Shown: positions 10,965 through 28,546 of the stretch, in pieces
Layout: the number at the start of each line of letters is the position of its first letter
Numbering within the stretch: position 1 is the stretch's first letter
Origin: an uncultured Alphaproteobacteria bacterium
GTDB taxonomy: Bacteria; Pseudomonadota; Alphaproteobacteria; UBA7879; VGCX01
Reading direction: 5' to 3'
DNA: 64,000 bases
NCBI GenBank assembly: GCA_913061155.1
Contig: CAJXSI010000002.1
Span: 1,167 to 65,166 of the forward strand
Notes under the pieces: model-generated
The model's database searches: none
Seen by the model: only the letters and a program-made list of their open reading frames with translations
Told to the model about the DNA's origin: nothing
Translations under genes and position numbers: made by a program

Positions 10965-10991
10965 ATTTAATAAAAAGTTAAGAGGTTCATT

Positions 10992-12138: not shown

Positions 12139-12159
12139 GCATGACAGGGAAAAATTAGG

Positions 12160-13075
12160 ATTATTCATTAACTTTGCCACAATGGCCTTCCGGCCACTCC
12201 GTCATCGCAAGTAGCCAAAGGATGCGTGGTAATCCATACGCCATCGACCTCCTCCAACTTCGTCGCCCCGCGCTTGATGCGGGGCCCAGGGCGGCAGTCA
12301 TCGGACACAATTTTCGTCATTCTGAATTTAGTTCAGAATCCATGTATCTCTGGCAGGTAAGGTATTTGTGATGAACACCGCTGTGGATTCCGGATCAAGT
12401 CCGGAATGACAATGAAGAAAGATGTCTAAGGTGGACTGGATTCCGGATCAAGTCCGGGAGGACGATACGTATAAGATCACCAGGGTAGAATCATTTGTCA
12501 TTAATCCTATGAGCGGACCTATTTTACTTCGTCGCCCCGTGCTTGACACGGGGTCCAGGGCGGCACTCACCGGATACAACCCGCCTGCTTTTTAGTTTAT
12601 GACTGGATTCCGGATCAAGCCCGGGACGACGATACGTATAAGATCACCGGGGTAGGATCGTTTGTCATTAATCCTATGAGCGGACCTATTTTTATTCGTC
12701 GCCTCGTGTATAGGTTCAGTAATTCGATGGCTATTTTACTTCGTCGCCCCGTGTATAAGTTCAGTAATTCGATGGCTATTTTACTTCGTCGCCCCGTGCT
12801 TGACACGGGGTCCAGGGCGGTATTCACCGGACACAATTTTCGTCATTCTGAATTTAGTTCAGAATCCATGTATCTCTGGCAGGTAAGGTATTTGTGATGA
12901 ACACCGCTGTGGATTCCGGATCAAGTCCGGAATGACAATGAAGAAAGATGCCTAAGGTGGACTGGATCCCGGATCAAGTCCGGGAAGACAATGAAGAAAG
13001 ATGTCTAAGGTAGACTGGGTCCCACGGTCAAGCCGTGGGATGACGGCAAAAAAGAAGTATCAAGGGCTGGGCAGA
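12160..13075. repeat. Dense array of REP/MITE-like elements. Contains ~180-bp direct repeats (12276-12460 and 12792-12975), a 52-bp tandem array (~12698-12830) and many CTTGA-loop hairpins.
   Basis: Hairpins at 12276-12294, 12387-12407, 12440-12458, 12538-12556, 12792-12810, 12912-12932, 12966-12984 and 13020-13040. Near-identical 180-bp blocks. Unit ttcgtcgccYcgtgtataRgttcagtaattcgatggctatttta repeated 2.5×. Confidence 0.75.
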
Positions 13076-13189
13076 CAAAACGAAGACGTCTATGATTTAA
13101 AACCACAAGGAGATGTTAATAACAATTTTCAAGCCACGAGGAGAGAGTGATGAAAACATTAGGGCTACAAGGAGAAGGGGATGAAAACC

Positions 13190-14086
13190 TTAAGAGCGTG
13201 GGTGGGTTTTTGTATAAATCTGTTTTAGTTTTTCCCGGTTAATATCGGTGTAACGTTGGGTGGTGGATAAGGAGGCATGCCCCAATAATTCTTGGATGGT
13301 GCGCAGGTCGCCGTCTGTCTCCAACAAATGGGTGGCAAATGTATGGCGTAATGCGTGGGGTGTTACCGTTTCTGGCAAGCCTATTCTTCGCCGGATATCG
13401 CGAATTTGTTTTTCCGCCACACTGATATTTAACCGTCCCCCCTTTTCTCCGTAAAACAATGGGCCTGAATCAAAAGGGCAAAAACTTATATACTTTTTAA
13501 TGGCACTGGCAACCACTGGCAACACGGGAACCAATCGTTCTTTGTTGCCTTTTCCTTTAATCCGCAAAACTGTATCAGCCATATCTTTTTTATCCAGCGC
13601 CAATGCCTCACTGATACGAAGGCCGCATCCATAAAGCAGTGTAAATAAGGCCAAGTTTCGTCGGTTGATCCAATCATCGCGATCATCTTCTTCGCAGGCA
13701 TCCAACAAATCGATTGCTTGGGATTTTGATAACCCACGCGGAATTGACTTTGGTATTTTGGGGGATCTTATATTTTGAATAATGGGATTGTGAAGAATAT
13801 CTTGACGGTCCAAATATTTATAAAAACTACGTACCACACTTAAGGCCCGGGCAATGGATGATTTGGCCAATTTATTTTCATTCAACTGACCAAGCCAGGC
13901 GCGGAAATCAATCGCCTTTAAACCTTCCAATGTTTTCAGGGTGGGCGCCCCCCCTTGATAGTGGGTGATGAAATTTAAGAATTGATCCAAGTCTTTTGTA
14001 TAGGCCAAAAAAGTATTGGTGGATAATTGGCGTTCTGATTGCACCCATGTTATCCACCTTTTAATGACTTGTTCGATGTTTTGCAT
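13190..14086 (-). CDS. xerC: Tyrosine recombinase XerC. The start is taken at the ATG overlapping the tal stop by 1 nt; the ORF is open to 14122.
   Basis: C-terminal …HALRHTFATHLLETDGDLRTIQELLGHASLSTTQRYT…HPRS catalytic R-H-R-Y region. Confidence 0.8.
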   Translation of the reverse strand: MQNIEQVIKRWITWVQSERQLSTNTFLAYTKDLDQFLNFITHYQGGAPTLKTLEGLKAIDFRAWLGQLNENKLAKSSIARALSVVRSFYKYLDRQDILHNPIIQNIRSPKIPKSIPRGLSKSQAIDLLDACEEDDRDDWINRRNLALFTLLYGCGLRISEALALDKKDMADTVLRIKGKGNKERLVPVLPVVASAIKKYISFCPFDSGPLFYGEKGGRLNISVAEKQIRDIRRRIGLPETVTPHALRHTFATHLLETDGDLRTIQELLGHASLSTTQRYTDINREKLKQIYTKTHPRS

Positions 14087-14748
14087 TAATCCTCGATAAT
14101 TGACTGTCCTGTCGATTGCCAATCTTTCAAAAAGGCATCCAGTCCATTATCTGTTAGGGGATGCTTAACCAATTGCTTGAAAACTTTGGCTGGCAAGGTT
14201 GCCACATCTGCACCAATTTCTGCCACCTGTTTTACGTGCAGTGGATGGCGCAAGGATGCCGCCAAAACTTGGGTGGTGATTTCAGGATAATTATCATAAA
14301 CCTGACAAATTTCTGAAATTAATGTCATGCCTTCCTGGCCAATATCATCCAAGCGTCCAATAAACGGGGAAATAAATGTTGCCCCTGCTTTTGCTGCCAT
14401 CAGGGCTTGCATAGATGAAAAACACAGTGTCACATTGACCAAGATATTTTCTTGGCGCAAACGATAACAGGCCTTTAATCCATCTTCTGTTAGGGGAACT
14501 TTGACACACACATTACTTGCAATTTTGGCCAAATATTTTCCTTCCCGGACCATGCCTTCAACATCAGTTGCCGTAACTTCGGCACTGACAGGACCGTCGA
14601 CAGCTTCGCAAATTTCGGCAATCACATCTTTAATCTTACGGCCTGTTTTGGCAATAATCGAAGGGTTTGTTGTCACCCCATCAACCAGCCCCATTTCTGC
14701 CAATTCTTTAATTTCTTTTACATTTGCGCCATCAACAAAAAACTTCAT
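14086..14748 (-). CDS. tal: Transaldolase / fructose-6-phosphate aldolase (type 3B, ~220 aa)
   Basis: [34 protein letters not shown]… signature N-terminus. Confidence 0.8.
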
Positions 14749-14805
14749 TTATATATCCTTTTGTGTTTGAATTCGTTTACTATATCATACAGAAATATGG
14801 ATCAT

Positions 14806-16779
14806 ATGTCAGATAATTTTGTCAAAATTTTAATTCCGCAAAGAATCGATTTTTCATTAACTTATGGAATACCGAAAGGGATAACTGTGCAAATGGGGCA
14901 GTATGTTAAGGTTCCTTTTCGGGCCAAATCCCAATGGGGTATTGTGTGGGGAATTGATGAAAATCCTGAATTTGACAGAAAAAAGATAAAAGACATTACG
15001 GCTGTTTCGGACCTGCCGCCCATGAACCAAATTAACCGACAGTTTATTGATTGGGTATCAAAATATACGATGTCCCCCATTGGATTGATTGCAAAAATGG
15101 CCATGGGAAATCCTGAGTATTTTGAGAAAATAAAAGAAGGCACAAAGGTCATCCCGAACCTGAATCTTGCGAAATTGGAAGGGGAGCAGAAAAACGCTGC
15201 CGCCCATCTTTCAAAATCTGTATCCGCCAAAAAGTTTGCCCCGATTCTTTTGGAAGGTGTCACAGGATCTGGAAAAACCGAGGTTTATTTTAAAGCCATG
15301 GAAACATGCTTGAATCAAAACCAGCAAACCCTTATTTTACTGCCTGAAATTTCTTTAAGCACCCAGTGGCTGGATCGGTTTAAAAAACGTTTTGGCTTTG
15401 CCCCAATCGTATGGCATTCCGATATTACCAAAGCCCAAAAACGCAATGCTTGGCAGGCCATTATTCAAAACAAAGCCCCTGTTGTTGTGGGCGCCAGGTC
15501 GGCCTTGTTCACCCCGTTTGACAACCTTGGCCTGGTTATTATTGACGAGGAACATGACAGCAGTTTCAAACAAGAAAGTCAGGTGATTTATAACGCCCGG
15601 GACATGGCTATTAAACGGGCCAGTCTTGGTAATTGCCCTGTTGTTTTATCATCCGCCACCCCTTGTGTTGAAACTTTGTATAATGTGGAATCTGGCAAGT
15701 ATGATTCCCTGTTTCTGCCCAATCGACATGGAAAGGCCCAAGTCCCTGCAGTTAGTTTAATCGATATGCGGGAAGAAGACTTAAAGGTAGGATCAAGTTG
15801 GTTATCAAATACATTGATCGAAGAAATAAAACAAACTGTTGCCAAAGACAACCAAACTTTGCTGTTTATGAATCGTCGCGGATATGCCCCTTTGGCTTTG
15901 TGTCGTGCCTGCGGACACCGATTGCAATGCCCAAGTTGTTCATCTTGGTTGGTGTATCACAAACAATCAAACCAAGTGCAATGTCACCACTGTGATTTTC
16001 ATTATACTTTGCCCAATACCTGTGAAAATTGTGATGAATCAAATTCCTTTATTTTATACGGTCCAGGGGTTGAACGCATTGCTGAAGAATTGGCAGAAAA
16101 ATTACCAGGCGTTCCCTTTGAAATCATTTCAAGTGATCTGTTGACTACCCCCAAAAAAATGCGCGAAGCCTTTGATCGAATTGAACAAGGGAAAGTTAAA
16201 ATTGTCATTGGCACCCAAATCATGGCAAAAGGCCATCACTTTCCTAACCTAACTTTGGTCGGTGTCTTGGATGCAGACCTTGGATTGGTTGGCGGGGATT
16301 TGCGTGCCGCAGAAAGAACCTTTCAATTACTGCATCAAGTTTCTGGTCGGGCTGGGCGGGCCGAACAACCTGGAAAAGTTTTATTGCAAACCTACAGTCC
16401 AAATAATGAAATGATGCAGATTTTACAACAGCAAAATTACAAAGCCTTCGTTGAAATTGAAAAACAAAATCGGGCCGAAATTGGGTTGCCGCCTTATGGC
16501 CATCTTGGGGCCATTATTATTTCGGCAAGGTCAACTGATGCAGGGGAATTATTTTGCCGGAAATTAAGCCAATCTATTCCCAAACACGATTCAATTTCTG
16601 TTTTCGGGCCGTCACCTGCCCCCATGTTCCAATTAAAAGGTTGGTATCGTTGGCGCTTTTTAATCAAAGGATCCAAGTCTGATAAAATTCAGCCTTATAT
16701 TGATTCTTGGGTTTCAAAAATTCAAGTACCGTCCACCTTAAAAATGCAAATTGATATTGATCCTTATTCCTTTATGTAG
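14806..16779 (+). CDS. priA: Primosomal protein N' (PriA helicase). The ORF is open from a TTG at 14761; an ATG at 14806 is the likely start.
   Basis: Walker A …LEGVTGSGKTEVY…, DEEH box (…VIIDEEHDSS…) and a Cys-rich zinc region (…CRACGHRLQCPSCSSWLVYH…CHHCDF…CENCDE…). Confidence 0.85.
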   Translation: MSDNFVKILIPQRIDFSLTYGIPKGITVQMGQYVKVPFRAKSQWGIVWGIDENPEFDRKKIKDITAVSDLPPMNQINRQFIDWVSKYTMSPIGLIAKMAMGNPEYFEKIKEGTKVIPNLNLAKLEGEQKNAAAHLSKSVSAKKFAPILLEGVTGSGKTEVYFKAMETCLNQNQQTLILLPEISLSTQWLDRFKKRFGFAPIVWHSDITKAQKRNAWQAIIQNKAPVVVGARSALFTPFDNLGLVIIDEEHDSSFKQESQVIYNARDMAIKRASLGNCPVVLSSATPCVETLYNVESGKYDSLFLPNRHGKAQVPAVSLIDMREEDLKVGSSWLSNTLIEEIKQTVAKDNQTLLFMNRRGYAPLALCRACGHRLQCPSCSSWLVYHKQSNQVQCHHCDFHYTLPNTCENCDESNSFILYGPGVERIAEELAEKLPGVPFEIISSDLLTTPKKMREAFDRIEQGKVKIVIGTQIMAKGHHFPNLTLVGVLDADLGLVGGDLRAAERTFQLLHQVSGRAGRAEQPGKVLLQTYSPNNEMMQILQQQNYKAFVEIEKQNRAEIGLPPYGHLGAIIISARSTDAGELFCRKLSQSIPKHDSISVFGPSPAPMFQLKGWYRWRFLIKGSKSDKIQPYIDSWVSKIQVPSTLKMQIDIDPYSFM

Positions 16780-16845
16780 GGGGTTTATTATCCTTGCCCC
16801 TTGTCAGGAAATAAGGTAAATTTTATGTAATTAAGGGAATACCTC

Positions 16846-17793
16846 ATGAATCGTATTTTTTACGCACTTATTATAATTTTACAGCTTCTTCCCAACGTTT
16901 TATTGGCAGAAGATCAGCCCTCTGAATACACCAATCCTGAAAAAATCCGGGCGGATCTGGATCGTCTTGAACAATATGTTCACAAGAAACTGGGGTTAAA
17001 TGATTTGGAACAACCAACCGGATTGCCGAAACCTGAAGCTGCTGAAAAAACAGCGTCTATTTATGAAAAAGGTGACCTGTCCCACCTTCATTCAAAACTG
17101 GACGATCAAAATACTTTGGTTGCGAATCTGATGGATCGTATTGAAAGATTAGAACATCAAGATGATATTTTTGGCCAGTCAACCCAAAAGAAAAATAATG
17201 AAATTGACCAGTTGAAAGAACACTTTGCGGCCCTGCAAGGTCAATTGGATGTTGCCCTTTTAGAAATTGAAAAATTAAAAAAATCTGGGGAAACTGCCCC
17301 AAAAGAAAAAGAAGATTCAAAGAAAAAATCTGAAGATACCCCTACGGAAAAGATCGCCCCTAAACCTGTTGAAGAAAATAAAAATGTTGATTTGGATGGA
17401 AAGTCCCCGGAAGAAATTTTCGACCTGGGGGAAAAAACTCTTAAGGCCGCAGATTATCAAACAGCCCAAAATATCTTTGATCAATACGTGGAATTGGATG
17501 GGGATAAATCTTCAAAATCAAAAGCCCATTATTATCTGGGGGAAATTTGTAATTTAACAAAACAGCCTGCCAAAGCATCCGAGCATTACCTGAAATCTTT
17601 CCAGTTAGATACTTCTGGGGATCATGCCGCAGAAAGTTTGGTGAAACTTGGCATTACTTTGCATGACGGCGGAAAGGCCAAAGCTGGTTGTGCCGCCCTT
17701 AAAAAAGCAAAAACCGAATATCCGGAAATGACAAGTTCTTCAAGATCTTTATTAGATGCTAAAATCAAGGAATTTAAGTGCCAAACAAGTTAA
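16846..17793 (+). CDS. cpoB: Tol-Pal system protein CpoB/YbgF. Signal peptide, coiled coil, C-terminal TPR.
   Basis: Signal peptide, long coiled coil (…LEHQDDIFG…QLKEHFAALQGQLD…), C-terminal TPR-like …AHYYLGEICNLTKQPAKASEHYLKSF…. The ybgF-tilS-ftsH synteny is conserved in alphaproteobacteria. Confidence 0.65.
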   Translation: MNRIFYALIIILQLLPNVLLAEDQPSEYTNPEKIRADLDRLEQYVHKKLGLNDLEQPTGLPKPEAAEKTASIYEKGDLSHLHSKLDDQNTLVANLMDRIERLEHQDDIFGQSTQKKNNEIDQLKEHFAALQGQLDVALLEIEKLKKSGETAPKEKEDSKKKSEDTPTEKIAPKPVEENKNVDLDGKSPEEIFDLGEKTLKAADYQTAQNIFDQYVELDGDKSSKSKAHYYLGEICNLTKQPAKASEHYLKSFQLDTSGDHAAESLVKLGITLHDGGKAKAGCAALKKAKTEYPEMTSSSRSLLDAKIKEFKCQTS

Positions 17794-19088
17794 GGCTGGA
17801 AACCACTTTACAGAATTTCTTAAACGGCATAACTTTCACGGCAGATTGCAAAATTGCCATCGCTGTTTCAGGGGGGGCTGACAGTTTGGCCCTGGCTTTT
17901 TCATTGAAATCTTTCGAAAAACAATACGGATACAGATTGATTGCTTTGCATGTTAATCACAAATTACGTGCCGAGGCATCGACAGAGGCCACCCAGGTAA
18001 AACAATGGATGAATGCCGCCGGAATTCCTTGTTATATTCTTGAATGGGAACATGCGGGCATTTCAACCAAGATCCAAGAACAAGCCCGCGATGCGCGATA
18101 TAACTTGATATCAACTGTTTGCAAAGACCAAAATATTAAAGGGGTTTTCCTTGGCCATCATAAAGAAGATCAATATGAAACCATTTTATATCGTCTAAGC
18201 TGTGCAACAGGGCCTGATGGTTTGGCAGGGATTCCCCCCATTTCAATCAAGCAAAATATTCCTTATTTAAGGCCGTACCTACCTTTGTATAAAAAGGATC
18301 TGGTCGACTATTTGGAAAATCATCCGTTTATTCAAGATCCCAGCAATGCCAATCTTAAGTATACACGGGTAAAATTTCGCCAAGAAACTGACCATCTGGC
18401 ACAGCTGGGTTTGACCATTGATACCCTTGTTGATGTGGCGGGTAAGGCAGCCCAAAATCGATTGTTTATTGAAGGTCTTGTTGATAAGGCTTCTGTGAAA
18501 TATACCCAGATTAATCCTTTGGGTTACGCCACTTTGGACCCTGCCTTATTTAAAGAAACTAATTTTGAAATCCAGTATCGACTTTTAAATAATTTGCTGA
18601 TGAAAATTGGGGGGAATACCAGTCCTCTTCGCCAGAAAAACTTGAAAGAATTTCTTGAGAAATGCCATAAAAATACTGCATTTAAAGGCGAAAGCATTGG
18701 AAATTGTTTAATTCGTCCCTATAAAAAAGAATGGCTAATTATCCGCGAACCTGAAAAAATTTCAGATAAAAAACCAGTGGGTAATCTTATTTTTTGGGAC
18801 AACCGTTTTATAATTTCAGGGCTTGAAAAGAATGAAAACCATTTCGTCGCAGCCCTTGGTGGGAATTGGGAAAATTATAAAAAAGTTTTTTCTGATATTG
18901 CCCAACTTCCCAGTTATTTTTGGCAGACAATTCCTGCCATATATGGTAAAAATGGTATAGTTTTAGAAATAATACTGCAAGACAGAGGAAATTCAGATAG
19001 TCTGACCAAGGGCTTTGACATAGAATTCTTCCCTTACTGCATGCAACATAAATCAATTTTTGATTTAACGAAAAGGATCACTTTATGA
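17778..19088 (+). CDS. tilS: tRNA(Ile)-lysidine synthetase
   Basis: PP-loop …IAVSGGADSLALAF…. Overlaps cpoB by 16 nt and ftsH by 4 nt. Confidence 0.8.
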   Translation: MPNKLRLETTLQNFLNGITFTADCKIAIAVSGGADSLALAFSLKSFEKQYGYRLIALHVNHKLRAEASTEATQVKQWMNAAGIPCYILEWEHAGISTKIQEQARDARYNLISTVCKDQNIKGVFLGHHKEDQYETILYRLSCATGPDGLAGIPPISIKQNIPYLRPYLPLYKKDLVDYLENHPFIQDPSNANLKYTRVKFRQETDHLAQLGLTIDTLVDVAGKAAQNRLFIEGLVDKASVKYTQINPLGYATLDPALFKETNFEIQYRLLNNLLMKIGGNTSPLRQKNLKEFLEKCHKNTAFKGESIGNCLIRPYKKEWLIIREPEKISDKKPVGNLIFWDNRFIISGLEKNENHFVAALGGNWENYKKVFSDIAQLPSYFWQTIPAIYGKNGIVLEIILQDRGNSDSLTKGFDIEFFPYCMQHKSIFDLTKRITL

Positions 19089-20995
19089 ACAATAACATTC
19101 GTAATTTTTGGCTTTTGACGATTATCGCCTTTGGCTTGTTCACCATATACAATATGTTTGATAATGGTAATGAGCAAAGTGGGGCCAAAATTATTGATTA
19201 TTCTGCCTTTAGAACAGCTGTCACACAAAACCAAATCAGCGAAGTTATCCTTAAGGGTGATACCGTTGTTGGTCGCCAAAATGATGGGCAAAAATTTATT
19301 ACCCGTGTTCCAGAAAATAACTTGTTTGCCGATGATTTGGCCAGTAAAGGCGTGAAAGTTGAAGCCGTTAACCGCGATGAAAACTATCCCTCTCTGTTCA
19401 GTGTCCTTATTTCTTGGTTCCCTATTTTATTATTTATTGGTGTTTGGGTTTACTTTTACCGTCAAATGCAATCTGGCGGCGGCGGTAAATCTATGGGATT
19501 TGGTAAATCAAAAGCAAAAATGCTGACCGAAGATAAATTAAAAATCACCTTCAAAGATGTTGCTGGTATTGAAGAAGCCAAAGATGAATTGGTGGAAATT
19601 GTCGACTTTTTAAAAGACCCCGAAAAATTCCACCGTATTGGCGGGCGCATCCCCAAAGGTGTCTTGTTAATGGGGTCACCTGGAACGGGTAAAACATTGT
19701 TGGCCAAGGCCATTGCGGGCGAAGCCCAAGTTCCTTTCTTTTCCATTTCAGGATCTGACTTTGTTGAAATGTTCGTTGGGGTGGGGGCCAGCCGTGTGCG
19801 TGACATGTTTGCGCAGGCTAAAAAGAACTGTCCTTGCATTATTTTCATTGATGAAATTGACGCTGTTGGACGTCATCGTGGGGCCGGCGTTGGCGGCGGC
19901 AATGATGAACGCGAACAAACTTTAAACCAATTATTGGTTGAAATGGACGGCTTTGATGAAAATGAAAGCGTTATCATAATTGCCGCCACCAACCGACCCG
20001 ATGTTCTGGACCCAGCTTTGATGCGTCCAGGCCGTTTTGACCGTCAAGTTGTTGTTCCATTACCGGATCTGGAAGGCCGTGAAGCCATTTTAAAAGTGCA
20101 TATGCGCAAGATTTCTTTGGCAGATGATATCAATGCAAAAGTTATTGCCCGGGGAACCCCTGGTTTTTCTGGGGCAGATCTTAGTAACCTTGTGAACGAA
20201 GGTGCCCTTTTGGCCGCGCGTCTTAATAAGCGTGTTGTCAGTATGGCCCATCTGGAAGAGGCCAAAGACAAAGTCATGATGGGGGCAGAACGCCGTTCCA
20301 TGATCATGACAGACGAAGAAAAAAAATTAACGGCTTATCATGAAGGTGGCCACGCCTTGGTTGCTTATTATATGGAAGACTCTGATCCCATTCACAAGGC
20401 AACCATTATTCCACGTGGGCGGGCTTTGGGTATGGTGATGCGCTTACCTGAAAAAGATCAAGTTTCTGTTACATTGGCCAAGTTAAAAGCTGACATTGCT
20501 GTTGCCATGGGGGGGCGTATTGCCGAAGAAATTATTTTTGGCAGAGAAAAAGTAACCACAGGGGCCTCTTCTGACATTCGGATGGCAACTGATTTGGCCA
20601 AGCGCATGGTCATGGAATGGGGGTTAAGTGAAAAGCTTGGACCCCTTGCATATGGCGCACCACAGCAAGAGGTATTCTTGGGACACTCTGTCACACAAAC
20701 CCAAGATATGTCAGAAAAAACACAGGAACTTGTGGATCAAGAAATCCGGCGTTCTGTAGATGATGGTTACGATGTTGCCTGTAAATTAATCAAAAAACAT
20801 ATTAAACAATTACATGCTTTGGCTGGGGCTATGTTGGAATTTGAAACCCTAAGTGGGGATGATATTGATAAGATCATGAAGGGAAAAAAGTTAGATCGTG
20901 ATCCACCTGCCAAAGGTAAAAAGAAAGCTGTGAAAAAGTCTAAGTCCTCGATCCCGGGAATGTCTGGACCAACACCGGCACCGCAAGGGGCATAA
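19085..20995 (+). CDS. ftsH: ATP-dependent zinc metalloprotease FtsH
   Basis: Two N-terminal TMs, AAA+ Walker A …[13 protein letters not shown]…, second region of homology, HEGGHAL zinc motif. Confidence 0.95.
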
Positions 20996-20997
20996 TC

Positions 20998-22347
20998 GTG
21001 ACGCGCAAAATATTTGGTACAGATGGCATTCGGTCCTTGGTTAATCGTGGGCCGTTGACCCCTGGGACTATTTTAAATGTGGCCCAGGCAACGGGCTTGC
21101 AATTTATGCGTGGGGATCACCGCCATCTGGTCATCATTGCAAAAGACACACGGCTATCTGGTTATATGCTGGAACCTGCTTTGACCGCGGGATTTACCTC
21201 TGTCGGAATGGATGTCATTTTGGTTGGGCCCATGCCAACACCCGCCGTTTCTATGTTAATTCGATCTTTGCGGGCAGATTTGGGCATCATGATTTCGGCT
21301 TCGCACAACCCTGCTGACGATAATGGCATTAAAATTTTTGGACCTGATGGACAAAAGCTGCCTGATTCTGTTGAAAAGGATATAGAGGCCAAAGCCGATT
21401 CTTTGACAGAAACTGACCTGGTTATACCGTCTAAACTGGGGCGCGCCCGTCGTTTGGACGATGCCCCTGGTCGTTATATCGAACACGTCAAAAGCACTTT
21501 TCCAAAGGGCAAAACGTTGCAAGGCCTTAAAATTGTTATTGATTGTGCCAATGGGGCTGCTTATAAAATTGCCCCAACCGTTCTATGGGAACTGGGCGCC
21601 GAAATTATTCCAATTGGGATCCACCCAGATGGGCGCAATATCAATCAGAATTGTGGTGCCACATCCACAGATGCCTTGCAAAAAAGTGTCGTTGATAACA
21701 AAGCAGATATTGGCATCGCCCTGGATGGGGACGCCGACCGTATTATTGTATCCGATGAAAAAGGGCATATTGTTGATGGGGATCAATTGATCGCAACCCT
21801 TGCATGTCATTGGCAAGAAAATGATAAATTAAATCATAATACTGTTGTTACCACCTTGATGTCCAACATTGGCCTTGAAAATTATTTGGCGACAAAGGGT
21901 ATTAAAATGATCCGTACCCAGGTGGGGGATCGATATGTTTCTGCTGAAATGTTGAACAATAATTATAACCTTGGGGGCGAACAGTCTGGTCATATTATCC
22001 TAAGTGATTATGGTACAACAGGGGATGGTTTATTGGCTGGATTACAAATTCTGTCCATTTTGGTGGAATCCCGCCAGCCCGCCAGCAAAGTATTACAGAA
22101 ATTTAAGGCAGTGCCCCAATCCCTTAAAAATTATAGATTCAAAGATCAAACACTTCTTGAAAATTCAATAGTAAAAAATTGTATGGATGTGGCTGAAAAG
22201 AAATTAACGGATGCCGGTGGGCGTTTGCTTATTCGAAAATCAGGGACAGAGCCTTTGGTTCGCGTTATGGCTGAATGTGAAGACGCAGATCTTTTGAACA
22301 CGGCAATTGATGATGTGATTCAGTGTCTGGAAAAAACAGATAAATAG
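20998..22347 (+). CDS. glmM: Phosphoglucosamine mutase (GTG start)
   Basis: …KIFGTDGIRS… and the phosphoserine loop …GIMISASHNP…. Confidence 0.9.
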   Translation: MTRKIFGTDGIRSLVNRGPLTPGTILNVAQATGLQFMRGDHRHLVIIAKDTRLSGYMLEPALTAGFTSVGMDVILVGPMPTPAVSMLIRSLRADLGIMISASHNPADDNGIKIFGPDGQKLPDSVEKDIEAKADSLTETDLVIPSKLGRARRLDDAPGRYIEHVKSTFPKGKTLQGLKIVIDCANGAAYKIAPTVLWELGAEIIPIGIHPDGRNINQNCGATSTDALQKSVVDNKADIGIALDGDADRIIVSDEKGHIVDGDQLIATLACHWQENDKLNHNTVVTTLMSNIGLENYLATKGIKMIRTQVGDRYVSAEMLNNNYNLGGEQSGHIILSDYGTTGDGLLAGLQILSILVESRQPASKVLQKFKAVPQSLKNYRFKDQTLLENSIVKNCMDVAEKKLTDAGGRLLIRKSGTEPLVRVMAECEDADLLNTAIDDVIQCLEKTDK

Positions 22348-22464
22348 ATCACCTAAGTTAATGACGGCGCATACTTTTTATAAAGCTTACCAATGATCGA
22401 ACGTTTTCATAAATCCGAAGACCGTTTATAATTGGGCCCCCCCATTGATCGGGGGCGGTTGAAA

Positions 22465-23337
22465 TTATTTTTTGCCCTGGGCTTTCCTCATTGGGTTTAC
22501 GCTTGAAAAACTTATGTCAGATGCTGCCCCTGCAGCATGTCCCGCAAAATCCACACCACTATAACCAGAAGATGCTGCCGCAGCGGCGGCAGGATCTCCA
22601 GTGCCTGTTGCCCCCAGGCCAGAAACATGCCGGCGCAATGCGTCGCGTATACTTGATTCTGGATCAGCACTTTCTGCGCCGGCATCTACGGTTGATTCAT
22701 AATCATCATAGGACAAACCTGCCCTTACTGCCTCTGTCGCCACAGCATCAGATAACCGCATAATTTTTGTCAGCAAATGAATGGCTTTGACCGTTACATC
22801 CCCTGCGGGCAACCCATCAAACCATTTCCCGAATGTATGCGGCGCAATTCCTTTTTCATGGGCTTTTCCTATGAGGTCATTTATTTGGTCCTCAATCTCA
22901 GAAAATGATCTTAACTCTCCTTCTTTTTTATATTGTGCACACAATACCCATATGATCTTTCTTTTTTCATCTACATTTCCACCATCAAAGTCATCTTTAT
23001 GAGTGCTTTCAATAAATCTTTTTAACTGTTCGCCAGTTACAGGAAATTCTGGTATTCCATAAAATAAACTTACAGGGATTCCTGATGATCTTGATATTTC
23101 TTCCCTTTTAAGTTTTTGGCCTTTAACCAACCTCCATACATCATCAGAAGTTGATTCCCCTTTTTTCATGGCCCTAAACTGCTCAAAAATTTCATCTTGA
23201 CTTAAGACACCGTTTGTTGATCTCCACATTTTTAAAGCAGCCCTTCTTTCTTTGTTTGAAAATTCATCTGCTGCAGATAAAGTTATGTTACTTAATAGTA
23301 AAAAAAAGACCCCTAAAACTATTGTATTAATTCTCAT
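22465..23337 (-). CDS. Secreted hypothetical protein with an Ala/Gly-rich C-terminus and Lys-rich tail. This is the partner of OMP paralog B.
   Basis: Signal peptide MRINTIVLGVFFLLLSNITLSAAD. C-terminus …GATGTGDPAAAAAASSGYSGVDFAGHAAGAAS…RKAQGKK. Starts 23 nt downstream of 23361-24098. Confidence 0.55.
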   Translation of the reverse strand: MRINTIVLGVFFLLLSNITLSAADEFSNKERRAALKMWRSTNGVLSQDEIFEQFRAMKKGESTSDDVWRLVKGQKLKREEISRSSGIPVSLFYGIPEFPVTGEQLKRFIESTHKDDFDGGNVDEKRKIIWVLCAQYKKEGELRSFSEIEDQINDLIGKAHEKGIAPHTFGKWFDGLPAGDVTVKAIHLLTKIMRLSDAVATEAVRAGLSYDDYESTVDAGAESADPESSIRDALRRHVSGLGATGTGDPAAAAAASSGYSGVDFAGHAAGAASDISFSSVNPMRKAQGKK

Positions 23338-23360
23338 ACTTATTATTCCCTGCTATTGTT

Positions 23361-24098
23361 TTAAATTCTTTTTGATAACGTGATAAAGACTGTATGGTAT
23401 TCAGGCTTTGTTTTTGTCATAATATTGAATTTTGAAGGGCTATAATCCCCTGACATTTTTAATTCTTGATACCTGGAATATTGGTACCGAATACCTGCTT
23501 CCATCCCATTAAAATCCAAGGAAGCCCCAACCCAAGGCGCCAGACCAAGTTTATATTTTTTCTTATTTACATCTGAAACTGTAGGAGAGTAATCTGCCGA
23601 TGGCGCGCTTTCCATTTCAAATCTGGAATACAAAAGATCCATGCCTATTTTTGCACTTAGGGCAGAGTTAATTTGTTTTCTGGCACCAATACTAACTGAA
23701 AAAGTATGTTTTCTGTTTAGTTTAACAATGCTGATTTCTGGCTCATCCGGCGGAGTGGCTGAATCAAATGTATCATCTAAAGTTAATATTTTTGCATGTT
23801 TTGCAGTCAGCCCATCATACAGATAACCAGATTCAAAAAAAATCGGCAAGGTATCCATTTCATATCCAAAGAATAACTTTCCTGCAAATGCGCCATTGTG
23901 TTTTAGGCGACGGCCACCAAAATAATGATATTCTATTGGTCGTCCCATTTCCACTCTATCTTGTGCACTGGCGTAGACATCGTTTTGCATATCGGCAAAG
24001 TTAAGGCCGGCACCCAGGCCTATATAGTAATTGCCTTCTGCCTTTGTGCCACACGCGCCAATAATAAAGATAAGTAAGAATTTATAGAATGCCTTCAC
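23361..24098 (-). CDS. Outer-membrane beta-barrel-type protein, paralog B
   Basis: Signal or lipoprotein-like N-terminus (…FIIGACGTKAEG). Shares blocks with 10206-10964, down to the C-terminal KPEYHTVFITLSKRI. Confidence 0.6.
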   Translation of the reverse strand: MKAFYKFLLIFIIGACGTKAEGNYYIGLGAGLNFADMQNDVYASAQDRVEMGRPIEYHYFGGRRLKHNGAFAGKLFFGYEMDTLPIFFESGYLYDGLTAKHAKILTLDDTFDSATPPDEPEISIVKLNRKHTFSVSIGARKQINSALSAKIGMDLLYSRFEMESAPSADYSPTVSDVNKKKYKLGLAPWVGASLDFNGMEAGIRYQYSRYQELKMSGDYSPSKFNIMTKTKPEYHTVFITLSKRI

Positions 24099-24209
24099 CT
24101 GATAACCCCTTGTGATTTATTTATATTTTATATATAGTAAATTAATATATTTTGTTGAGGGATGCAAACATATTTATAAACACCAACATCCCCTTTTTTG
24201 ATTTTCAGA

Positions 24210-27200
24210 TTATGCTTTCTTGCTACGCCAAGTGCGGTAATTCTCACGCAGTTGCAAGGCGCAAGGGGTGACAATCAATGTAAAGATTGATGCAAAGAAA
24301 ACCCCGAATACAATGGCACTGGCCAGCTGTACCCACCACTCACTGGACGGCGCCCCAATGGTGATATAACGGGACAGGAAATCAATATCCATCCGGAATA
24401 AAATCGGCAGCAACCCCAAAATGGTTGTAATTTGCGTTAACAAAATGGGCCGCAAACGTTGGGCTGCTGTTCTTAAAATGGCCTCTGTTTTATTGGCTGT
24501 CTGGCTTTTTAAATCATCAAATGTATCAATGAAAATAATGTTATTACTGACAATAATACCGGCCAGGGCGATAACGCCAATCCCACTCATCACGATACTG
24601 AAAGCTTGGTTCATGACAAGCAATCCAACCAGAACCCCAACAGTGGAAAGACCAATAGAACTGATAACCAGCATTGAACTGAAAAAGCTGTTGAATTGGG
24701 TGACCAAGATAATAACAATTAAAAAGATCGCAATCATGAAGGCCTTGATTAAAAATGATCCAGTTTCTTTTTTATCTTCTTCTTCGCCTTTAAAGGTGAC
24801 TTTGACTTTTTTATTCCCAGGGTTTTTTTGTAACCAACTTTGAATTTCTTTTACTTTGTCATTAACCAAAAATTGACTGTTCACATTGGCTTGAACATTC
24901 ATGTAGGGTTTTCCATCAATTCGTTCAATGGATGCCACCCGTTGTTTCGCGATCCGCTTGACAAAATTTGTAATGGGGACTTGACCATTTTTATTTTGAA
25001 TACGAATTTGATCCAGTTGATCCAGATTGCGATATTTTTCAGGGAATCGGACAACCACATCAATTTCATCCCGACTGTCTTCGGGGCGGTAAGTACCAAA
25101 TTTCATGCCGTCTGCAACAAGTTGGGTGATGGCCCCCACGCCCATTACATCGGCACCATATTTTCCAGCCTCAGAACGATCGATTTTTAATTCCCATTCA
25201 ATACCTGGCTTTGGTTTCGAATCTTCGATATCTTCAATTCCTTTAACTGTTTTCAAGTAATTTTCAATACGATCGACCTCCGGGGCCAACAGATCATAAT
25301 CATCCGCAGAGATTTCAATATCAATAGGCTTTCCTTTTTGAGGGCCTTTTTTATTGGTCTTTAATTCAACAATTACACCCGGAATATTATTGACGTTTTT
25401 CAAGGTGCGCTCCAAAACCACATTTGATTTTTCACGATTCTGCCAGTGAATTAATTCAACTGTAATGGCCCCAATGGTGTCTTCAGAAAATTCCCGGTTT
25501 TGTAAATTTCCTGCCTTTGTATAAATGGTTTTAAATTCTTTTGTATTAAGAATTTGGGTTTCAACTTTTCTGGCAAGGCGGTCTTTTTCTTTAACAGATA
25601 AATTACCACGGGCCTTTACCATATAGATGGCAGAGTCAGGTTCGATGTTTGGAAAAAATTCAATGCCGCGCCCAAAAGTGGAATATAAAAAGATAACAGA
25701 ACATAAAATAACAGAGGATCCAATTAATGTTTTCCCCGGCATTTCAACAAAGCCTTTCAGGGTGTTGACATAATATCCGGCAATGCCCTTGATGTCTTCG
25801 ATCTTGCCAGTTTCGGCAGCAATAATTGATTTAATGGCGGCTTTATCAGGTTGGGCAACGTTACCAAATAAACTGCCCAAGGCTGGGATGAAAATCAAGG
25901 CCACGAATAAAGAGGACGTTAAGGTTGCAATTAAGGTAATGGGCATAAATTTCATGAACTGCCCAACAACCCCTGGCCAGAAAAGCAAGGGCATAAACAC
26001 AACCAAAACAGTAACGGTTGATGTGATAACAGGAAGGGCCATTCGAATAGATGCCTCTTTATACGCTGCCAACTTGCTTTTGCCTTCGATCATTTTTCGG
26101 TCAGCATATTCAACCACAATGATGGCCCCATCAACCAGCATGCCGACTGATAAAATCAAACTAAAAAGAACAACAATATTTAAGGTATATCCCATTAATC
26201 CCAGAATAAAAATTCCCGCAAGAAAGGATGTTGGAATGGCCGTCCCCACAAGTAATCCAGATCGCCATCCCAAGGCAGTGATAATAATGACCATCACCAA
26301 AATGATTGCCATAATAATATTATTTTGCAGTTCTGATAGCATGTCACGAATGCGTTGCGAATCATCTTGGGCAAAAGTTACGGAAACTTTGCCTTTATAG
26401 GGTTTTAAAAATTGAATAGTTTTTTCGCGAACTTGCTCTATCGTTTCAATAATATTTTCGCCCATACGTTTTGATACTTCAACAATGATGGCAGGTCGTC
26501 CCTTGTCCCGGGCATAAGACAATCTGTCTTTGTAAGTTCGTTTAACATTTGCCACATCCTTTAATCGAAGGACAGAATCAGTGCCGCTTGTCTTAAGGGG
26601 AAGGTTGGCAATTTCTTGGACATTTTCCAAAAGGCCAGGGGCTTTTAACATGAAACTACCCGCACCAGATTTAATATTTCCTGATGGAACCATAATATTG
26701 TTACTGCTGAATAATTGCATTACATCTGATAAAGATATGTTGAAACTTTCAAGATGCATCGGGTCGATGATAACCTCTACAACTTCTTCTCGGTTGCCTA
26801 AGACTTTGGCCTCTAGAACACTTTTGATGGTTTCAATTTCATCTTGCAAATCCCGCCCAATATTGAACAGCGTACGTTCAGGAATATCGCCCGCAATTTG
26901 AATAACCAGGACAGGAAAAAGGCTGATATTAATTTCTTTAACAATGGGATCGTCCGAATCCATGGGTAAATCTGCTTTGGCTGTATCAATTTTATCGCGC
27001 ACATCAAGCAAGGCTTTGTCGATATTATGACCGGCATAAAATTCCAAAATAAACGTGCCAAAATCTTCGCTGGCGATGGCTTTGATTTCTTTTAAGCCTT
27101 CGATGCTGCGGACATGCTGTTCAATCGGTTTTAAAATCAGTCGTTCAGAATCTTCGGGGGAAATACCTTGGTGATGAATACTGACATAGACGATGGGGAT

Positions 27201-27326
27201 TTTAACATCAGGGGCAGATTCTTTCGGAATGGTGACATAGGTGTAAAGGCCGCCAATGAACAAAAAGAAGAACAGCAAAAGAACAGTACGTACATGATTT
27301 AAACAAAAATTAATTAACTGATGCAT
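24210..27326 (-). CDS. RND efflux transporter permease (AcrB/AcrD/AcrF family, 1038 aa)
   Basis: 12-TM topology with two large periplasmic loops. Conserved …GLLVGTAIPTSFLAGIFILGLMGYTLNIVVLFSLILSVGMLVDGAIIVVE… TM4 region. Confidence 0.9.
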   Translation of the reverse strand: MHQLINFCLNHVRTVLLLFFFLFIGGLYTYVTIPKESAPDVKIPIVYVSIHHQGISPEDSERLILKPIEQHVRSIEGLKEIKAIASEDFGTFILEFYAGHNIDKALLDVRDKIDTAKADLPMDSDDPIVKEINISLFPVLVIQIAGDIPERTLFNIGRDLQDEIETIKSVLEAKVLGNREEVVEVIIDPMHLESFNISLSDVMQLFSSNNIMVPSGNIKSGAGSFMLKAPGLLENVQEIANLPLKTSGTDSVLRLKDVANVKRTYKDRLSYARDKGRPAIIVEVSKRMGENIIETIEQVREKTIQFLKPYKGKVSVTFAQDDSQRIRDMLSELQNNIIMAIILVMVIIITALGWRSGLLVGTAIPTSFLAGIFILGLMGYTLNIVVLFSLILSVGMLVDGAIIVVEYADRKMIEGKSKLAAYKEASIRMALPVITSTVTVLVVFMPLLFWPGVVGQFMKFMPITLIATLTSSLFVALIFIPALGSLFGNVAQPDKAAIKSIIAAETGKIEDIKGIAGYYVNTLKGFVEMPGKTLIGSSVILCSVIFLYSTFGRGIEFFPNIEPDSAIYMVKARGNLSVKEKDRLARKVETQILNTKEFKTIYTKAGNLQNREFSEDTIGAITVELIHWQNREKSNVVLERTLKNVNNIPGVIVELKTNKKGPQKGKPIDIEISADDYDLLAPEVDRIENYLKTVKGIEDIEDSKPKPGIEWELKIDRSEAGKYGADVMGVGAITQLVADGMKFGTYRPEDSRDEIDVVVRFPEKYRNLDQLDQIRIQNKNGQVPITNFVKRIAKQRVASIERIDGKPYMNVQANVNSQFLVNDKVKEIQSWLQKNPGNKKVKVTFKGEEEDKKETGSFLIKAFMIAIFLIVIILVTQFNSFFSSMLVISSIGLSTVGVLVGLLVMNQAFSIVMSGIGVIALAGIIVSNNIIFIDTFDDLKSQTANKTEAILRTAAQRLRPILLTQITTILGLLPILFRMDIDFLSRYITIGAPSSEWWVQLASAIVFGVFFASIFTLIVTPCALQLRENYRTWRSKKA

Positions 27327-27329
27327 GGC

Positions 27330-28400
27330 TTATTCGTTCATTTCCACAGGGACGACAGTATTGCCTTCTTTTACAAATTCGTGACCAACTGTAATAATAC
27401 GAATACTATCAGGTAGGCCGGCAATCCATAAGCAGTCGCTGCTGGATTCAACCATTTCAGCCGGATAAAATTCCACAATATTGGCCGCGTTAACCGTTTT
27501 TATGCCGTAAACGCCTTCGTCAGATAATGTCAAAGAACTGGAGGGAACCTTGTGTGCCATAGATTCTTTTAAGGGTAATTTAACGGATGCAGAAATGCCG
27601 GCTGGAATTTCAAAGTCAGGATTGTATATTTTTATTTCAACCCGGAATGTGTGTGTATTTGGATCTGCCACAGTTGAAATGTATGAAATAACCCCTTGAA
27701 TTTTTGTTCCATCTGTAAGAACAACATCTACATTTTTACCTTTTTCAAGATACTTGTAATGTCTTTCTTCCACGTAAACAACAATCAACAAGGGATCCAA
27801 TTCAACAAATGTTGCCAGAGGTGTGTTTGAAAATTCAGAAACAATACCCCCAATTTCAACATCATATTTATTCAAGATTCCATTAAAGGGGGCTTTTATA
27901 ACAGAGTTATTTAAATCAATTTGGGCTTTCTTATAATCAGCCCGGGCCTTTTCCAAATCTGCCAAAGATTTTGCCAAAGAAGTTTTGGATCGATAGTTTT
28001 TCTTTGCCAATTTCCTGGCAGCGGTATATTCCAGTTCCCGCTGGCTTAATAAGGCTTTGGCACTTTGTAATTTTTCTTTGCGGTCTTCCAATTTCAGGGT
28101 AATAAGTTTTTGGCCTTCTTTAACAAAATCCCCTTCTTTTACGTGCCTGTTTTGCACAGTTCCATCTGTTTCTGCCCGAATAATAACTTTGCGTCCAGCC
28201 TCTGTTTTTCCATTTAATTCAAGATTAAGGATATGTGGAACAGCTTCGGATGTTTTTACTTGGACAGAAAATAATTTTCCATAATCTGTATTTTGGTTTT
28301 TTTCCCCTTCAGGTGTTGAAGGGAATAAAAAGCCCGATCCAAACCAAACAGTAAGAATCAAAAGGATAAAGGCAGATATAATATAAGATGATTTTTTCAT
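27330..28400 (-). CDS. RND efflux periplasmic adaptor (membrane-fusion protein)
   Basis: N-terminal anchor, coiled-coil hairpin (…LQSAKALLSQRELEYTAARKLAKKNYRSKTSLAKSLADLEKARADYKKAQIDL…), beta-barrel domain. Stop lies 4 nt before the permease start. Confidence 0.8.
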   Translation of the reverse strand: MKKSSYIISAFILLILTVWFGSGFLFPSTPEGEKNQNTDYGKLFSVQVKTSEAVPHILNLELNGKTEAGRKVIIRAETDGTVQNRHVKEGDFVKEGQKLITLKLEDRKEKLQSAKALLSQRELEYTAARKLAKKNYRSKTSLAKSLADLEKARADYKKAQIDLNNSVIKAPFNGILNKYDVEIGGIVSEFSNTPLATFVELDPLLIVVYVEERHYKYLEKGKNVDVVLTDGTKIQGVISYISTVADPNTHTFRVEIKIYNPDFEIPAGISASVKLPLKESMAHKVPSSSLTLSDEGVYGIKTVNAANIVEFYPAEMVESSSDCLWIAGLPDSIRIITVGHEFVKEGNTVVPVEMNE

Positions 28401-28546
28401 GACTATAACTTTATAAATTAAGGATTAACCATACCATATTTATCAGGAATTAAAATAGGAAAGCTGATGAAATACTTTGGGCAAAAAATTAAGTTTTCAT
28501 CTGTTGCATATGGTGTACAATAAAAAAATATTAAGGGAGTTTAAAT

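What the first reader, a model, noticed from the sequence alone, without database searches (positions are those of the whole stretch)
22465..28400. Module copy B sits directly downstream of a TolC-less RND efflux pair
The minus-strand gene order is MFP (27330-28400), RND permease (24210-27326), a 110-bp AT-rich gap, OMP paralog B (23361-24098), then the secreted Ala/Gly-rich protein (22465-23337). Tripartite RND pumps need an outer-membrane channel of ~450 aa, and none is encoded here. The 245-aa barrel occupies the position where an outer-membrane factor would normally be. Either the pump uses a distant TolC or this small OMP/partner pair plays a role with the pump.
Basis: inference. Interest (0 to 1): 0.6.

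Follow-up and report, generated by a model that had tools for sequence, protein, structure and literature searches.

The report
Efflux pump beside unrelated small barrel protein
A two-gene drug-efflux pump lies next to a small outer-membrane barrel gene only because an 11-kb stretch of this bacterium's genome is flipped relative to its relatives, so the neighbourhood is ordinary and does not point to a new kind of pump exit.

Summary
The gene order is real and sits at the stated coordinates. On the minus strand it reads adaptor (MFP), RND permease, a 111-bp gap with 25% GC, the 245-aa OMP-B, then a 290-aa secreted protein. No TolC-type channel gene lies in the window.

The suggested link between pump and barrel is not supported.

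1. OMP-B models confidently as an 8-stranded barrel like OmpA, NspA and OmpX. It has no periplasmic helical tunnel and no OEP repeats, so it is not an outer-membrane factor.
2. Two related lineages have the same pump (RND 92% and 88% identical). In both, the pump is followed by a convergent xerD–tal–priA…glmM block. In the one relative whose contig continues, the OMP and partner genes sit beyond glmM, in tandem next to RNase HII.
3. This window differs from those relatives by a single inversion of about 11 kb (13190–24098). That inversion placed OMP-B and its partner next to the pump.
4. About 20 related MFP–RND pairs in relatives lack a linked outer-membrane factor, as E. coli acrAB does.
5. 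The adaptor keeps a MexA-length α-hairpin, the part that docks TolC-type channels.

The pump most likely uses an unlinked TolC homologue, but I could not check this. Read-through transcription across the gap remains possible. This is an ordinary arrangement of low interest.

The parts
27330..28400 (-). Periplasmic adaptor (membrane-fusion protein) of the RND pump, 356 aa
   Evidence: It matches TIGR01730 RND_mfp (2e-50) and Pfam HlyD_3 and HlyD_D23. It aligns without a gap to MexA residues 15-336, including the α-hairpin (query about 103-166). dN/dS against the 98-99% strain is 0.07.
24210..27326 (-). RND permease (HAE1-type, AcrB/MdtB-like), 1038 aa
   Evidence: It matches Pfam ACR_tran residues 5-1022 at E 4e-160. 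NCBIfam RND_permease_2 scores 483 bits, below the curated cutoff. The closest solved chains are MdtB, MexB, CmeB and TriC-type pumps. dN/dS is 0.02.
24099..24209 (-). 111-bp intergenic gap with 25% GC; one junction of the inversion
   Evidence: A hairpin, GGGGAUGU…GCAUCCCU, starts 13 nt after the RND stop. The whole gap folds at -17.6 kcal/mol (z -1.4) and no U-run follows the hairpin. The scan found no σ70 consensus site on the minus strand in the gap. An AAGGGG Shine-Dalgarno lies about 8 nt before the GTG. The gap differs at 1 of 111 positions from strain L012. Beyond a 16-nt patch it does not align with the region upstream of OMP-A.
23361..24098 (-). OMP-B: a divergent 8-stranded OmpA-like β-barrel of the OMP_b-brl superfamily, 245 aa
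   Evidence: The AF2 model from a 50-sequence alignment has pLDDT 85.8 and pTM 0.82, with 8 long strands. Top Foldseek PDB matches are the OmpA TM domain (TMt 0.75), NspA (0.69), Ail, OmpX, OpcA and Pla; no outer-membrane factor appears. Of 50 family members, 37 match PF13505. dN/dS is 0.18.
22465..23337 (-). Partner B: a secreted, lineage-specific 290-aa protein with an Ala/Gly-rich C-terminal tail
   Evidence: It has a signal peptide and no Pfam or NCBIfam family. A word-indexed search of 5.8e9 proteins found only itself and an 86% variant. It shows weak homology to the partners in the relative (32% over 84 aa, E 4e-5). dN/dS is 0.89, from 22 nonsynonymous and 7 synonymous differences.
13190..24098 (.). 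Segment of about 10.9 kb inverted relative to related lineages (xerD, tal, priA, cpoB-like, tilS, ftsH, glmM, partner B, OMP-B)
   Evidence: This is shown by comparing the gene order of the window with L015+L007 (contig CAYGKW010000001.1) and with L044-L046.
10206..12065 (+). Module copy A: OMP-A (10206-10964) plus partner A (10992-12065), in the position conserved across relatives, downstream of RNase HII
   Evidence: Relatives L007, L008 and L009 have NaH-RNaseHII-OMP-partner in the same order. The upstream region has a conserved TTGACA-like element and a 5'-leader motif shared with L007 and L008.
12160..13150 (.). Cluster of local direct repeats (units of 45-210 nt with palindromic cores) at the other inversion junction, between partner A and xerD
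   Evidence: See repeat finder families D2, D4, D5, D6 and D9. The core motif occurs only here in the window and in none of the fetched loci. There is no Rfam match.

Best explanation
Two independent units lie side by side because of a genome rearrangement.

**Unit 1: the pump.** It is an ordinary two-gene RND efflux operon (adaptor plus permease) of the AcrAB/MdtABC kind. Like its relatives across this alphaproteobacterial (Holosporales-like) clade, it has no linked outer-membrane factor. It most likely docks, through the adaptor's α-hairpin, onto a TolC-family channel encoded elsewhere in the genome. This last step is inferred.

**Unit 2: the surface module.** It is a lineage-specific two-gene module: a small 8-stranded OmpA-like β-barrel followed by a fast-evolving secreted Ala-rich protein. 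In relatives the module sits between RNase HII and glmM, and in one relative it is tandemly duplicated.

**The rearrangement.** This window differs from its relatives by one inversion of about 11 kb (window 13190-24098). The inversion carried the glmM-proximal copy (OMP-B and partner B) to the 3' end of the RND gene.
- Shown: the difference in gene order, the fold class of OMP-B, and the absence of an outer-membrane factor near the pump in relatives.
- Inferred: the direction of the change (this lineage derived), the distant TolC, and the independent function of the module.
For: **Fold**
- OMP-B models as an 8-stranded barrel with pLDDT 85.8.
- Foldseek PDB matches are OmpA, NspA, Ail, OmpX and OpcA, with no TolC, OprM or CusC.
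- The family profile weakly hits OmpA and NspA sequences.
- 37 of 50 family members match PF13505.

**Synteny**
- The contig from one relative (RND 92% identical) reads MFP> RND> 287-aa hypothetical> <xerD <tal priA> … glmM> <partner2 <OMP2 <partner1 <OMP1 <RNaseHII.
- A third lineage (RND 88% identical) reads MFP> RND> (31 bp) <xerD <tal priA> … glmM>.
- The window and its 98-99% strains read MFP> RND> OMP-B> partner B> <glmM … <priA tal> xerD>.
- A single two-breakpoint inversion converts one order into the other.
- A 1-kb repeat cluster marks the other junction.

**Outer-membrane factor**
- No OEP protein lies next to the MFP-RND loci examined (17 plus the lineages).
- phmmer with a validated TolC query found nothing in 682 kb of fetched sequence, window included.

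**Adaptor and permease**
- The adaptor aligns gap-free to MexA, including the hairpin.
- The nearest solved permeases are pumps described with TolC-family channels (plus my own knowledge of those systems).

**Selection**
- The pump genes and OMP-B are under purifying selection: dN/dS 0.02, 0.07 and 0.18.
Against: - No tolC homologue of this organism was seen, because the rest of the genome could not be searched.
- All four genes are on the same strand.
- The gap has no convincing intrinsic terminator.
- The gap has no consensus promoter, so read-through co-transcription is possible.
- The three lineages are about equidistant. The direction of the inversion therefore rests on parsimony: tandem duplicates first, inversion second, with a repeat scar at one junction. 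There is no clean outgroup.
- In an NJ tree OMP-B is a long basal branch and does not pair with the relative's OMP2. Its orthology to the glmM-proximal copy is positional only.
Confidence: 0.75

Rival explanations
1. OMP-B, with or without partner B, is a functional outer-membrane component of the RND pump. It would be either a non-canonical exit in place of TolC or an accessory that stabilises the complex.
For: - The genes share a strand and are separated by 111 bp with no strong terminator.
- The arrangement is kept in all strains of this species that were sampled.
- No outer-membrane factor lies in the window.
- OMP-B is the most divergent copy of its family, which could reflect a new role.
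Against: - An 8-stranded monomeric barrel without a periplasmic domain cannot meet the adaptor's hairpin tips across the periplasm (TolC architecture is from established knowledge).
- The adaptor hairpin is of canonical length.
- The adjacency is absent from lineages with 88-92% identical pumps.
- It is also absent from the more distant related loci.
- The strains that keep it are only about 4-5% diverged at synonymous sites, so their agreement says little.
Confidence: 0.04
2. The inversion created a transcriptional fusion. OMP-B and partner B are now co-transcribed with the pump by read-through, so the two units are co-regulated without forming a physical complex.
For: - The gap has only a weak hairpin with no U-tract.
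- It has no consensus σ70 site on the coding strand.
- The leader motif conserved upstream of OMP-A and its orthologues is missing upstream of OMP-B.
- The gap shows 1 difference in 111 bp between strains, against about 5 expected from dS of about 0.045. This is weak evidence of constraint.
Against: - The AT-rich gap contains many near-consensus -10 and -35 combinations, and a 16-nt patch resembles the OMP-A promoter region.
- A strong Shine-Dalgarno and 111 bp of spacing are typical of an independent gene.
- There are no expression data.
Confidence: 0.3
3. The window's arrangement (RND next to OMP-B) is ancestral, and the xerD-next-to-RND order in the other lineages is the derived inversion.
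For: - The three lineages are roughly equidistant, and some genes group the two non-inverted lineages together. One event on either branch therefore fits.
- OMP-B is a basal branch.
Against: - This would need an inverted duplication 10 kb apart as the first step, with a later inversion happening to restore a perfect head-to-tail tandem next to glmM.
- The RND-xerD junction is tight, 31 bp in L044. The window's partner A-xerD junction carries a 1.1-kb repeat cluster.
- Even if this were true, loss of the adjacency in two lineages with a conserved pump still argues against functional coupling.
Confidence: 0.2

Closest known systems
E. coli acrAB / mdtABC-type RND operons that use the unlinked tolC
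   Same: - The adaptor and permease genes are adjacent, and no outer-membrane factor gene lies in the operon.
- The permease matches ACR_tran end to end, and its nearest solved relative is MdtB.
- The adaptor has lipoyl, β-barrel and α-hairpin regions that align with MexA and AcrA.
   Different: - Identity to the characterised pumps is low: the match falls below the NCBIfam family cutoffs.
- No regulator gene is adjacent.
- The substrate is unknown.
- The tolC partner was not seen.
- The host is an uncultured Holosporales-like alphaproteobacterium (record titles).
mexAB-oprM-type three-gene RND operons
   Same: A third gene encoding an outer-membrane protein follows the permease on the same strand.
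   Different: - The third gene here is a 245-aa 8-stranded barrel, not a 450-500-aa OEP-repeat protein with a helical tunnel.
- Its position is not conserved in relatives.
Small 8-stranded outer-membrane barrels (OmpA TM domain, OmpX, Ail, NspA; Pfam OMP_b-brl PF13505)
   Same: - The predicted fold and strand number match, with long strands extending beyond the membrane.
- Family members match PF13505 and OmpA_membrane.
- There is a signal peptide.
   Different: - OMP-B itself does not reach any Pfam threshold.
- The close family is small: 71 hits at E<=1e-3 among 1.84e9 representatives, 5 of them at E<=1e-30.
- The gene is always followed by a secreted Ala-rich partner gene.

Membership tests
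Tripartite RND efflux pump (HAE1-type, AcrAB-TolC-like) | An inner-membrane RND permease of about 1000-1050 aa matching ACR_tran over its full length | tested here: met
   PF00873 matches residues 5-1022 of 1038 at E 4e-160. MdtB, MexB and AcrB are matched over the full length.
Tripartite RND efflux pump (HAE1-type, AcrAB-TolC-like) | A periplasmic adaptor encoded next to the permease, with an α-helical hairpin for docking the outer-membrane factor | tested here: met
   TIGR01730 scores 171.6 bits against a cutoff of 94.9. The alignment to MexA 15-336 is gap-free, and query residues 103-166 cover the hairpin. The helical character of that stretch is inferred from the alignment, not modelled.
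Tripartite RND efflux pump (HAE1-type, AcrAB-TolC-like) | A TolC-family outer-membrane factor encoded somewhere in the genome | not testable with these tools
   It is absent from the 64-kb window and the right flank. The rest of the genome could not be retrieved.
Tripartite RND efflux pump (HAE1-type, AcrAB-TolC-like) | Proton-relay residues in TM4 and TM10 (AcrB D407, D408, K940) | not tested
   The residue-level alignment was not inspected. A dN/dS of 0.02 indicates a constrained, presumably active gene.
Outer-membrane factor (TolC/OprM, Pfam OEP PF02321), considered for OMP-B | About 430-500 aa with two OEP repeats | tested here: not met
   OMP-B is 245 aa. Neither it nor any of 50 relatives hits OEP. 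The validated TolC query finds nothing.
Outer-membrane factor (TolC/OprM, Pfam OEP PF02321), considered for OMP-B | A long periplasmic α-helical tunnel joined to a trimeric 12-stranded barrel | tested here: not met
   The AF2 model is all-β with 8 strands. The only helix is the signal peptide. No outer-membrane factor is among the 50 best Foldseek PDB matches listed.
OMP_b-brl / OmpA-like 8-stranded barrels (PF13505, MBB clan) | A sequence match to PF13505 or OmpA_membrane | tested here: inconclusive
   OMP-B itself has no Pfam hit at E<=0.01. Its homologue P0004 carries PF13505, and 37 of 50 aligned relatives match it. The family profile hits OmpA at 3.6e-5.
OMP_b-brl / OmpA-like 8-stranded barrels (PF13505, MBB clan) | An eight-stranded antiparallel β-barrel preceded by a signal peptide | tested here: met
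   The model has 8 long strands at pLDDT 85.8. The best structural matches are OmpA TM (TMt 0.75) and NspA (0.69). A hydrophobic N-terminal leader is present.

The most novel reading that the evidence does not exclude
The inversion fused the OMP-B/partner B module to the 3' end of the pump operon. The relocated barrel is the most divergent member of its family. It may since have acquired a pump-related role, for example as an outer-membrane accessory co-expressed with the pump in an organism that has a reduced or absent TolC repertoire.
Probability: 0.04. Interest if true: 0.6.

Novelty: new member of a known kind. Interest (0 to 1): 0.15.

Why it matters
It matters little beyond annotation. 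An RND pump operon without a linked outer-membrane factor is the common acrAB-type arrangement.

The useful lesson is a caution. In this genome, gene adjacency is not evidence of shared function, because a lineage-specific inversion created the neighbourhood.

The OMP-plus-Ala-rich-partner module is a small family found so far only in this group of marine, protist-associated alphaproteobacteria. As a candidate surface or host-interaction module it may deserve attention in its own right. That question is separate from the pump.

Tried and rejected
**Searching for a tolC homologue of this organism**
- Look-ups are limited to window proteins, so the rest of the genome could not be reached.
- Only the window, about 10 kb of its right flank and 47 related loci could be screened. 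All were negative.

**Looking for an outer-membrane factor next to related pumps**
- I scanned 20 candidate ORFs, most of 290 to 560 aa, against Pfam.
- They turned out to be SHMT, HslU-like AAA, RsmB, a permease, a sigma factor, ExoVII, a T3SS ATPase and others. None was OEP.

**Calling a promoter or terminator in the 111-bp gap**
- Consensus scans and folding were inconclusive.

**Aligning the OMP-B upstream region**
- I aligned it with the regions upstream of OMP-A and of the relatives' OMPs. Only a 16-nt patch is shared.

**Testing whether inverted repeats at the two junctions drove the inversion**
- None was found between 12066-13190 and 24099-24209.

**Polarising the inversion with an outgroup**
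- The three lineages are about equidistant.
- The next relative (RND 59% identical) shares no downstream synteny.

**Assigning partner B to a family**
- There were no Pfam or NCBIfam hits, and no homologues beyond the species.

**Testing for an actively invertible (phase-variable) segment**
- I rejected this for lack of evidence. All contigs sampled from this species show the same orientation.
Full report
**Observation**

- 27330-28400(-), 356 aa: an RND periplasmic adaptor. TIGR01730 scores 171.6 bits against a cutoff of 94.9, and it matches Pfam HlyD_3 and HlyD_D23.
- 24210-27326(-), 1038 aa: an RND permease. PF00873 matches residues 5-1022 at E 4e-160.
- 24099-24209: a gap of 111 bp with 25% GC.
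- 23361-24098(-), 245 aa: a signal-peptide protein, OMP-B. It is a clear paralogue of 10206-10964(+), OMP-A, with 47% identity and E 8e-70.
- 22465-23337(-), 290 aa: a secreted protein whose C-terminal 60 residues or so are Ala/Gly-rich.

These are the only two OMP copies in the window. No OEP/TolC-type protein was found among the window's larger ORFs or in 10 kb beyond its right end.

**What OMP-B is**

The close family is very small.
- The word-indexed search of 5.8e9 proteins returned four clusters.
- A full HMMER profile search of 1.84e9 representatives returned 71 hits at E<=1e-3, only five of them at E<=1e-30.
- Of 50 aligned members, 37 match Pfam OMP_b-brl (PF13505) and 11 match OmpA_membrane.
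- OMP-B itself reaches no Pfam threshold.

With the 50-sequence alignment, AlphaFold2 gives pLDDT 85.8 and pTM 0.82, with eight long β-strands. The only helix is the signal peptide.

Foldseek against the PDB returns the OmpA transmembrane domain (TMt 0.75), NspA (0.69), Ail, OmpX, OpcA and Pla/OmpT. No TolC, OprM or CusC chain appears. The family profile weakly hits OmpA and NspA sequences.

OMP-B is therefore a small monomeric OmpA-like barrel. A TolC-family factor is a protein of 430-500 aa that trimerises into a 12-stranded barrel with a periplasmic helical tunnel of about 100 Å (established knowledge). OMP-B fails every testable defining feature of that family.

**What the pump is**

The permease's nearest solved relatives are MdtB, AdeB-like pumps, MexB, CmeB and TriC. 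From my own knowledge, these pumps work with TolC-family channels.

The adaptor aligns without a gap to MexA residues 15-336. Query residues of about 103-166 cover the α-hairpin. That hairpin is the element that contacts the periplasmic tips of TolC or OprM (established knowledge). The pump therefore looks built for a canonical outer-membrane factor.

Both genes are strongly constrained, with dN/dS of 0.02 and 0.07 against a strain with dS of about 0.04-0.05.

**Is an outer-membrane factor normally linked in this clade?**

A genome-contig scan with the permease found 25 related loci. Most are MAGs labelled Alphaproteobacteria, Candidatus Finniella, Holosporaceae or Midichloriaceae.
- I listed the ORFs within about 4.5 kb of the pump in 17 of them.
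- I scanned 20 candidate ORFs, most of 290-560 aa, against Pfam. None is OEP.
- Two further lineages found by protein search also lack one.
- As a control, phmmer with E. coli TolC against all ORFs of 150 aa or more in the window and 43 loci (682 kb) found nothing at E<=10.
It scores 999 bits to PDB TolC and detects OprM, CmeC and SilC at E<1e-6.

An unlinked factor is thus the conserved state here. E. coli acrAB and tolC are likewise treated as separate genes (background in PMC12817139; that they are unlinked is my own knowledge).

**Why OMP-B sits next to the pump**

Gene orders in the lineages compared, written in the pump's orientation:

| Lineage | RND identity | Gene order |
|---|---|---|
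| Window and its 98-99% strains (L001-L004, L012) | – | lpxC> … ftsJ> MFP> RND> OMP-B> partner B> <glmM <ftsH <tilS <cpoB-like <priA tal> xerD> … <partner A <OMP-A <RNaseHII <NaH |
| Relative GCA_964350815.1, one 243-kb contig | 92% | lpxC> … ftsJ> … MFP> RND> 287-aa secreted hypothetical> <xerD <tal priA> cpoB-like> tilS> ftsH> glmM> <partner2 <OMP2 <partner1 <OMP1 <RNaseHII <NaH |
| JGI metagenomes (L044-L046) | 88% | MFP> RND> (31 bp) <xerD <tal priA> … glmM>, then the contig ends |
| L008/L009 | – | NaH> RNaseHII> OMP> partner>, then the contig ends |

Flipping the block xerD…glmM–partner–OMP, which is window 13190-24098, converts the relative's order into the window's order. One junction of that inversion is the 111-bp gap. 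The other is the 1.1-kb interval between partner A and xerD. That interval is filled with local repeats found nowhere else in the window or the fetched loci.

The RND–OMP-B adjacency is therefore not conserved, even among genomes whose pumps are 88-92% identical. It is explained by a single inversion.

**Direction of the change**

The three lineages are about equidistant. MFP and RND group the window with the 92% relative, while LpxC, FtsH and FtsJ group the other two lineages. Phylogeny alone therefore cannot polarise the event.

I favour the window as the derived state, at about 0.8, for two reasons.
- A tandem duplication followed by an inversion is simpler than an inverted duplication 10 kb apart followed by an inversion that restores a perfect tandem.
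- The RND–xerD junction is tight in L044, whereas the window's partner A–xerD junction carries a repeat 'scar'.

In an NJ tree OMP-B is a long basal branch, and the relative's OMP1 and OMP2 pair together. This fits gene conversion between tandem copies, with rapid divergence of the relocated copy. It also fits an older paralogy, so the orthology of OMP-B to OMP2 is positional only. The relative's OMP2 carries an in-frame stop.

**The partner gene**

Partner B has no Pfam or NCBIfam family. It has no homologue beyond an 86% variant. It is weakly related to the relative's partners (E 4e-5) and shares only its N-terminal 40 residues or so with partner A. Its dN/dS of 0.89, from 22 nonsynonymous and 7 synonymous changes, contrasts with 0.18 for OMP-B.

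The 'barrel plus fast-evolving secreted Ala-rich protein' pair is conserved as a module in every lineage seen. This suggests a surface or host-interaction unit, though that reading is an inference.

**Transcription across the gap**

This is unresolved.
- The gap RNA forms an 8-bp-stem hairpin starting 13 nt after the RND stop, but no U-tract follows. The whole gap folds with an unremarkable z-score of -1.4.
- The scan finds no consensus σ70 site on the coding strand there.
- The leader motif conserved upstream of OMP-A and its orthologues is absent upstream of OMP-B. Only a 16-nt patch is shared.
- A strong Shine-Dalgarno precedes the GTG start.

Read-through co-transcription created by the inversion is therefore possible, at about 0.3. 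That would mean co-expression, not a shared machine.

**Verdict**

The 'distant TolC' reading is the supported one, though TolC itself was not seen. The 'small OMP serves the pump' reading is not supported. The arrangement is an acrAB-type operon that happens to abut an unrelated surface-protein module. It is of low interest.

Noticed in passing
window 55132-56058 (-): This is a 308-aa ORF; the called gene is 302 aa. It carries the eukaryotic mitochondrial-carrier domain (PF00153 Mito_carr) according to the precomputed Pfam hits for the matching contig. From my own knowledge, such carriers in bacteria are typical of intracellular species such as Legionella.
   Followed up: no
window 12160-13150: A dense cluster of local direct repeats with units of 45-210 nt. 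Some have palindromic cores such as CCCCGTGCTTGACACGGGG. They lie between partner A and xerD, occur nowhere else in the window or the fetched loci, and have no Rfam match. They sit at one inversion junction.
   Followed up: partly
window 3623-4081; locus L042 (GCA_905221625.1, CAJNDU010008580.1): An identical MlaD-domain protein is encoded on an 81-kb contig of GCA_905221625.1. That accession is cited in papers on Symbiodiniaceae genomes, which I did not open. The RND protein also occurs in a Tara dataset. The bacterium is probably associated with marine dinoflagellates or other protists.
   Followed up: partly
L007 12770-13498: The second tandem OMP copy in the relative's genome has an in-frame stop codon (…AYANM*NKTT…). 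It is either a pseudogene or an assembly error. The neighbouring partner1 gene contains a run of N, an assembly gap in Ala-rich repeats.
   Followed up: no
window 62550-63797 (-): A 415-aa orphan with a signal peptide, a short N-terminal coiled coil, a β-rich body and a C-terminal …ARLKF. It looks like a porin-type outer-membrane protein. It has no Pfam, NCBIfam or PDB sequence match.
   Followed up: partly
window 28401-28668 vs L012 3823-5330 and L015 6451-7952: The 98% strain and the 92% relative both carry two extra minus-strand genes between ftsJ and the adaptor gene, of about 390 and 102 aa. The 389-aa protein from L015 has no Pfam hit. The window lacks both genes, so there is an indel just upstream of the pump operon.
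   Followed up: no
window 10140-10205; L007 and L008 about 9940-10000: A conserved leader motif, TTGGGNAATCNAAAAAGCGGAAAGGA, lies just upstream of the start codon of the L007 and L008 OMP genes. It is preceded by a TTGACA box. OMP-A has a diverged version of both, and OMP-B has neither.
   Followed up: no
window 52521-54203 (+): A 560-aa ORF with an internal signal-peptide-like start (MMKKIFFIVIFLGLSFKSFA). It has no Pfam, NCBIfam or PDB match and is another lineage-specific secreted protein.
   Followed up: no
L015 13188-14051: In the relative's genome the slot just downstream of the RND gene holds a different 287-aa secreted hypothetical protein. It has no Pfam hit and no homologue in the window.
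   Followed up: partly
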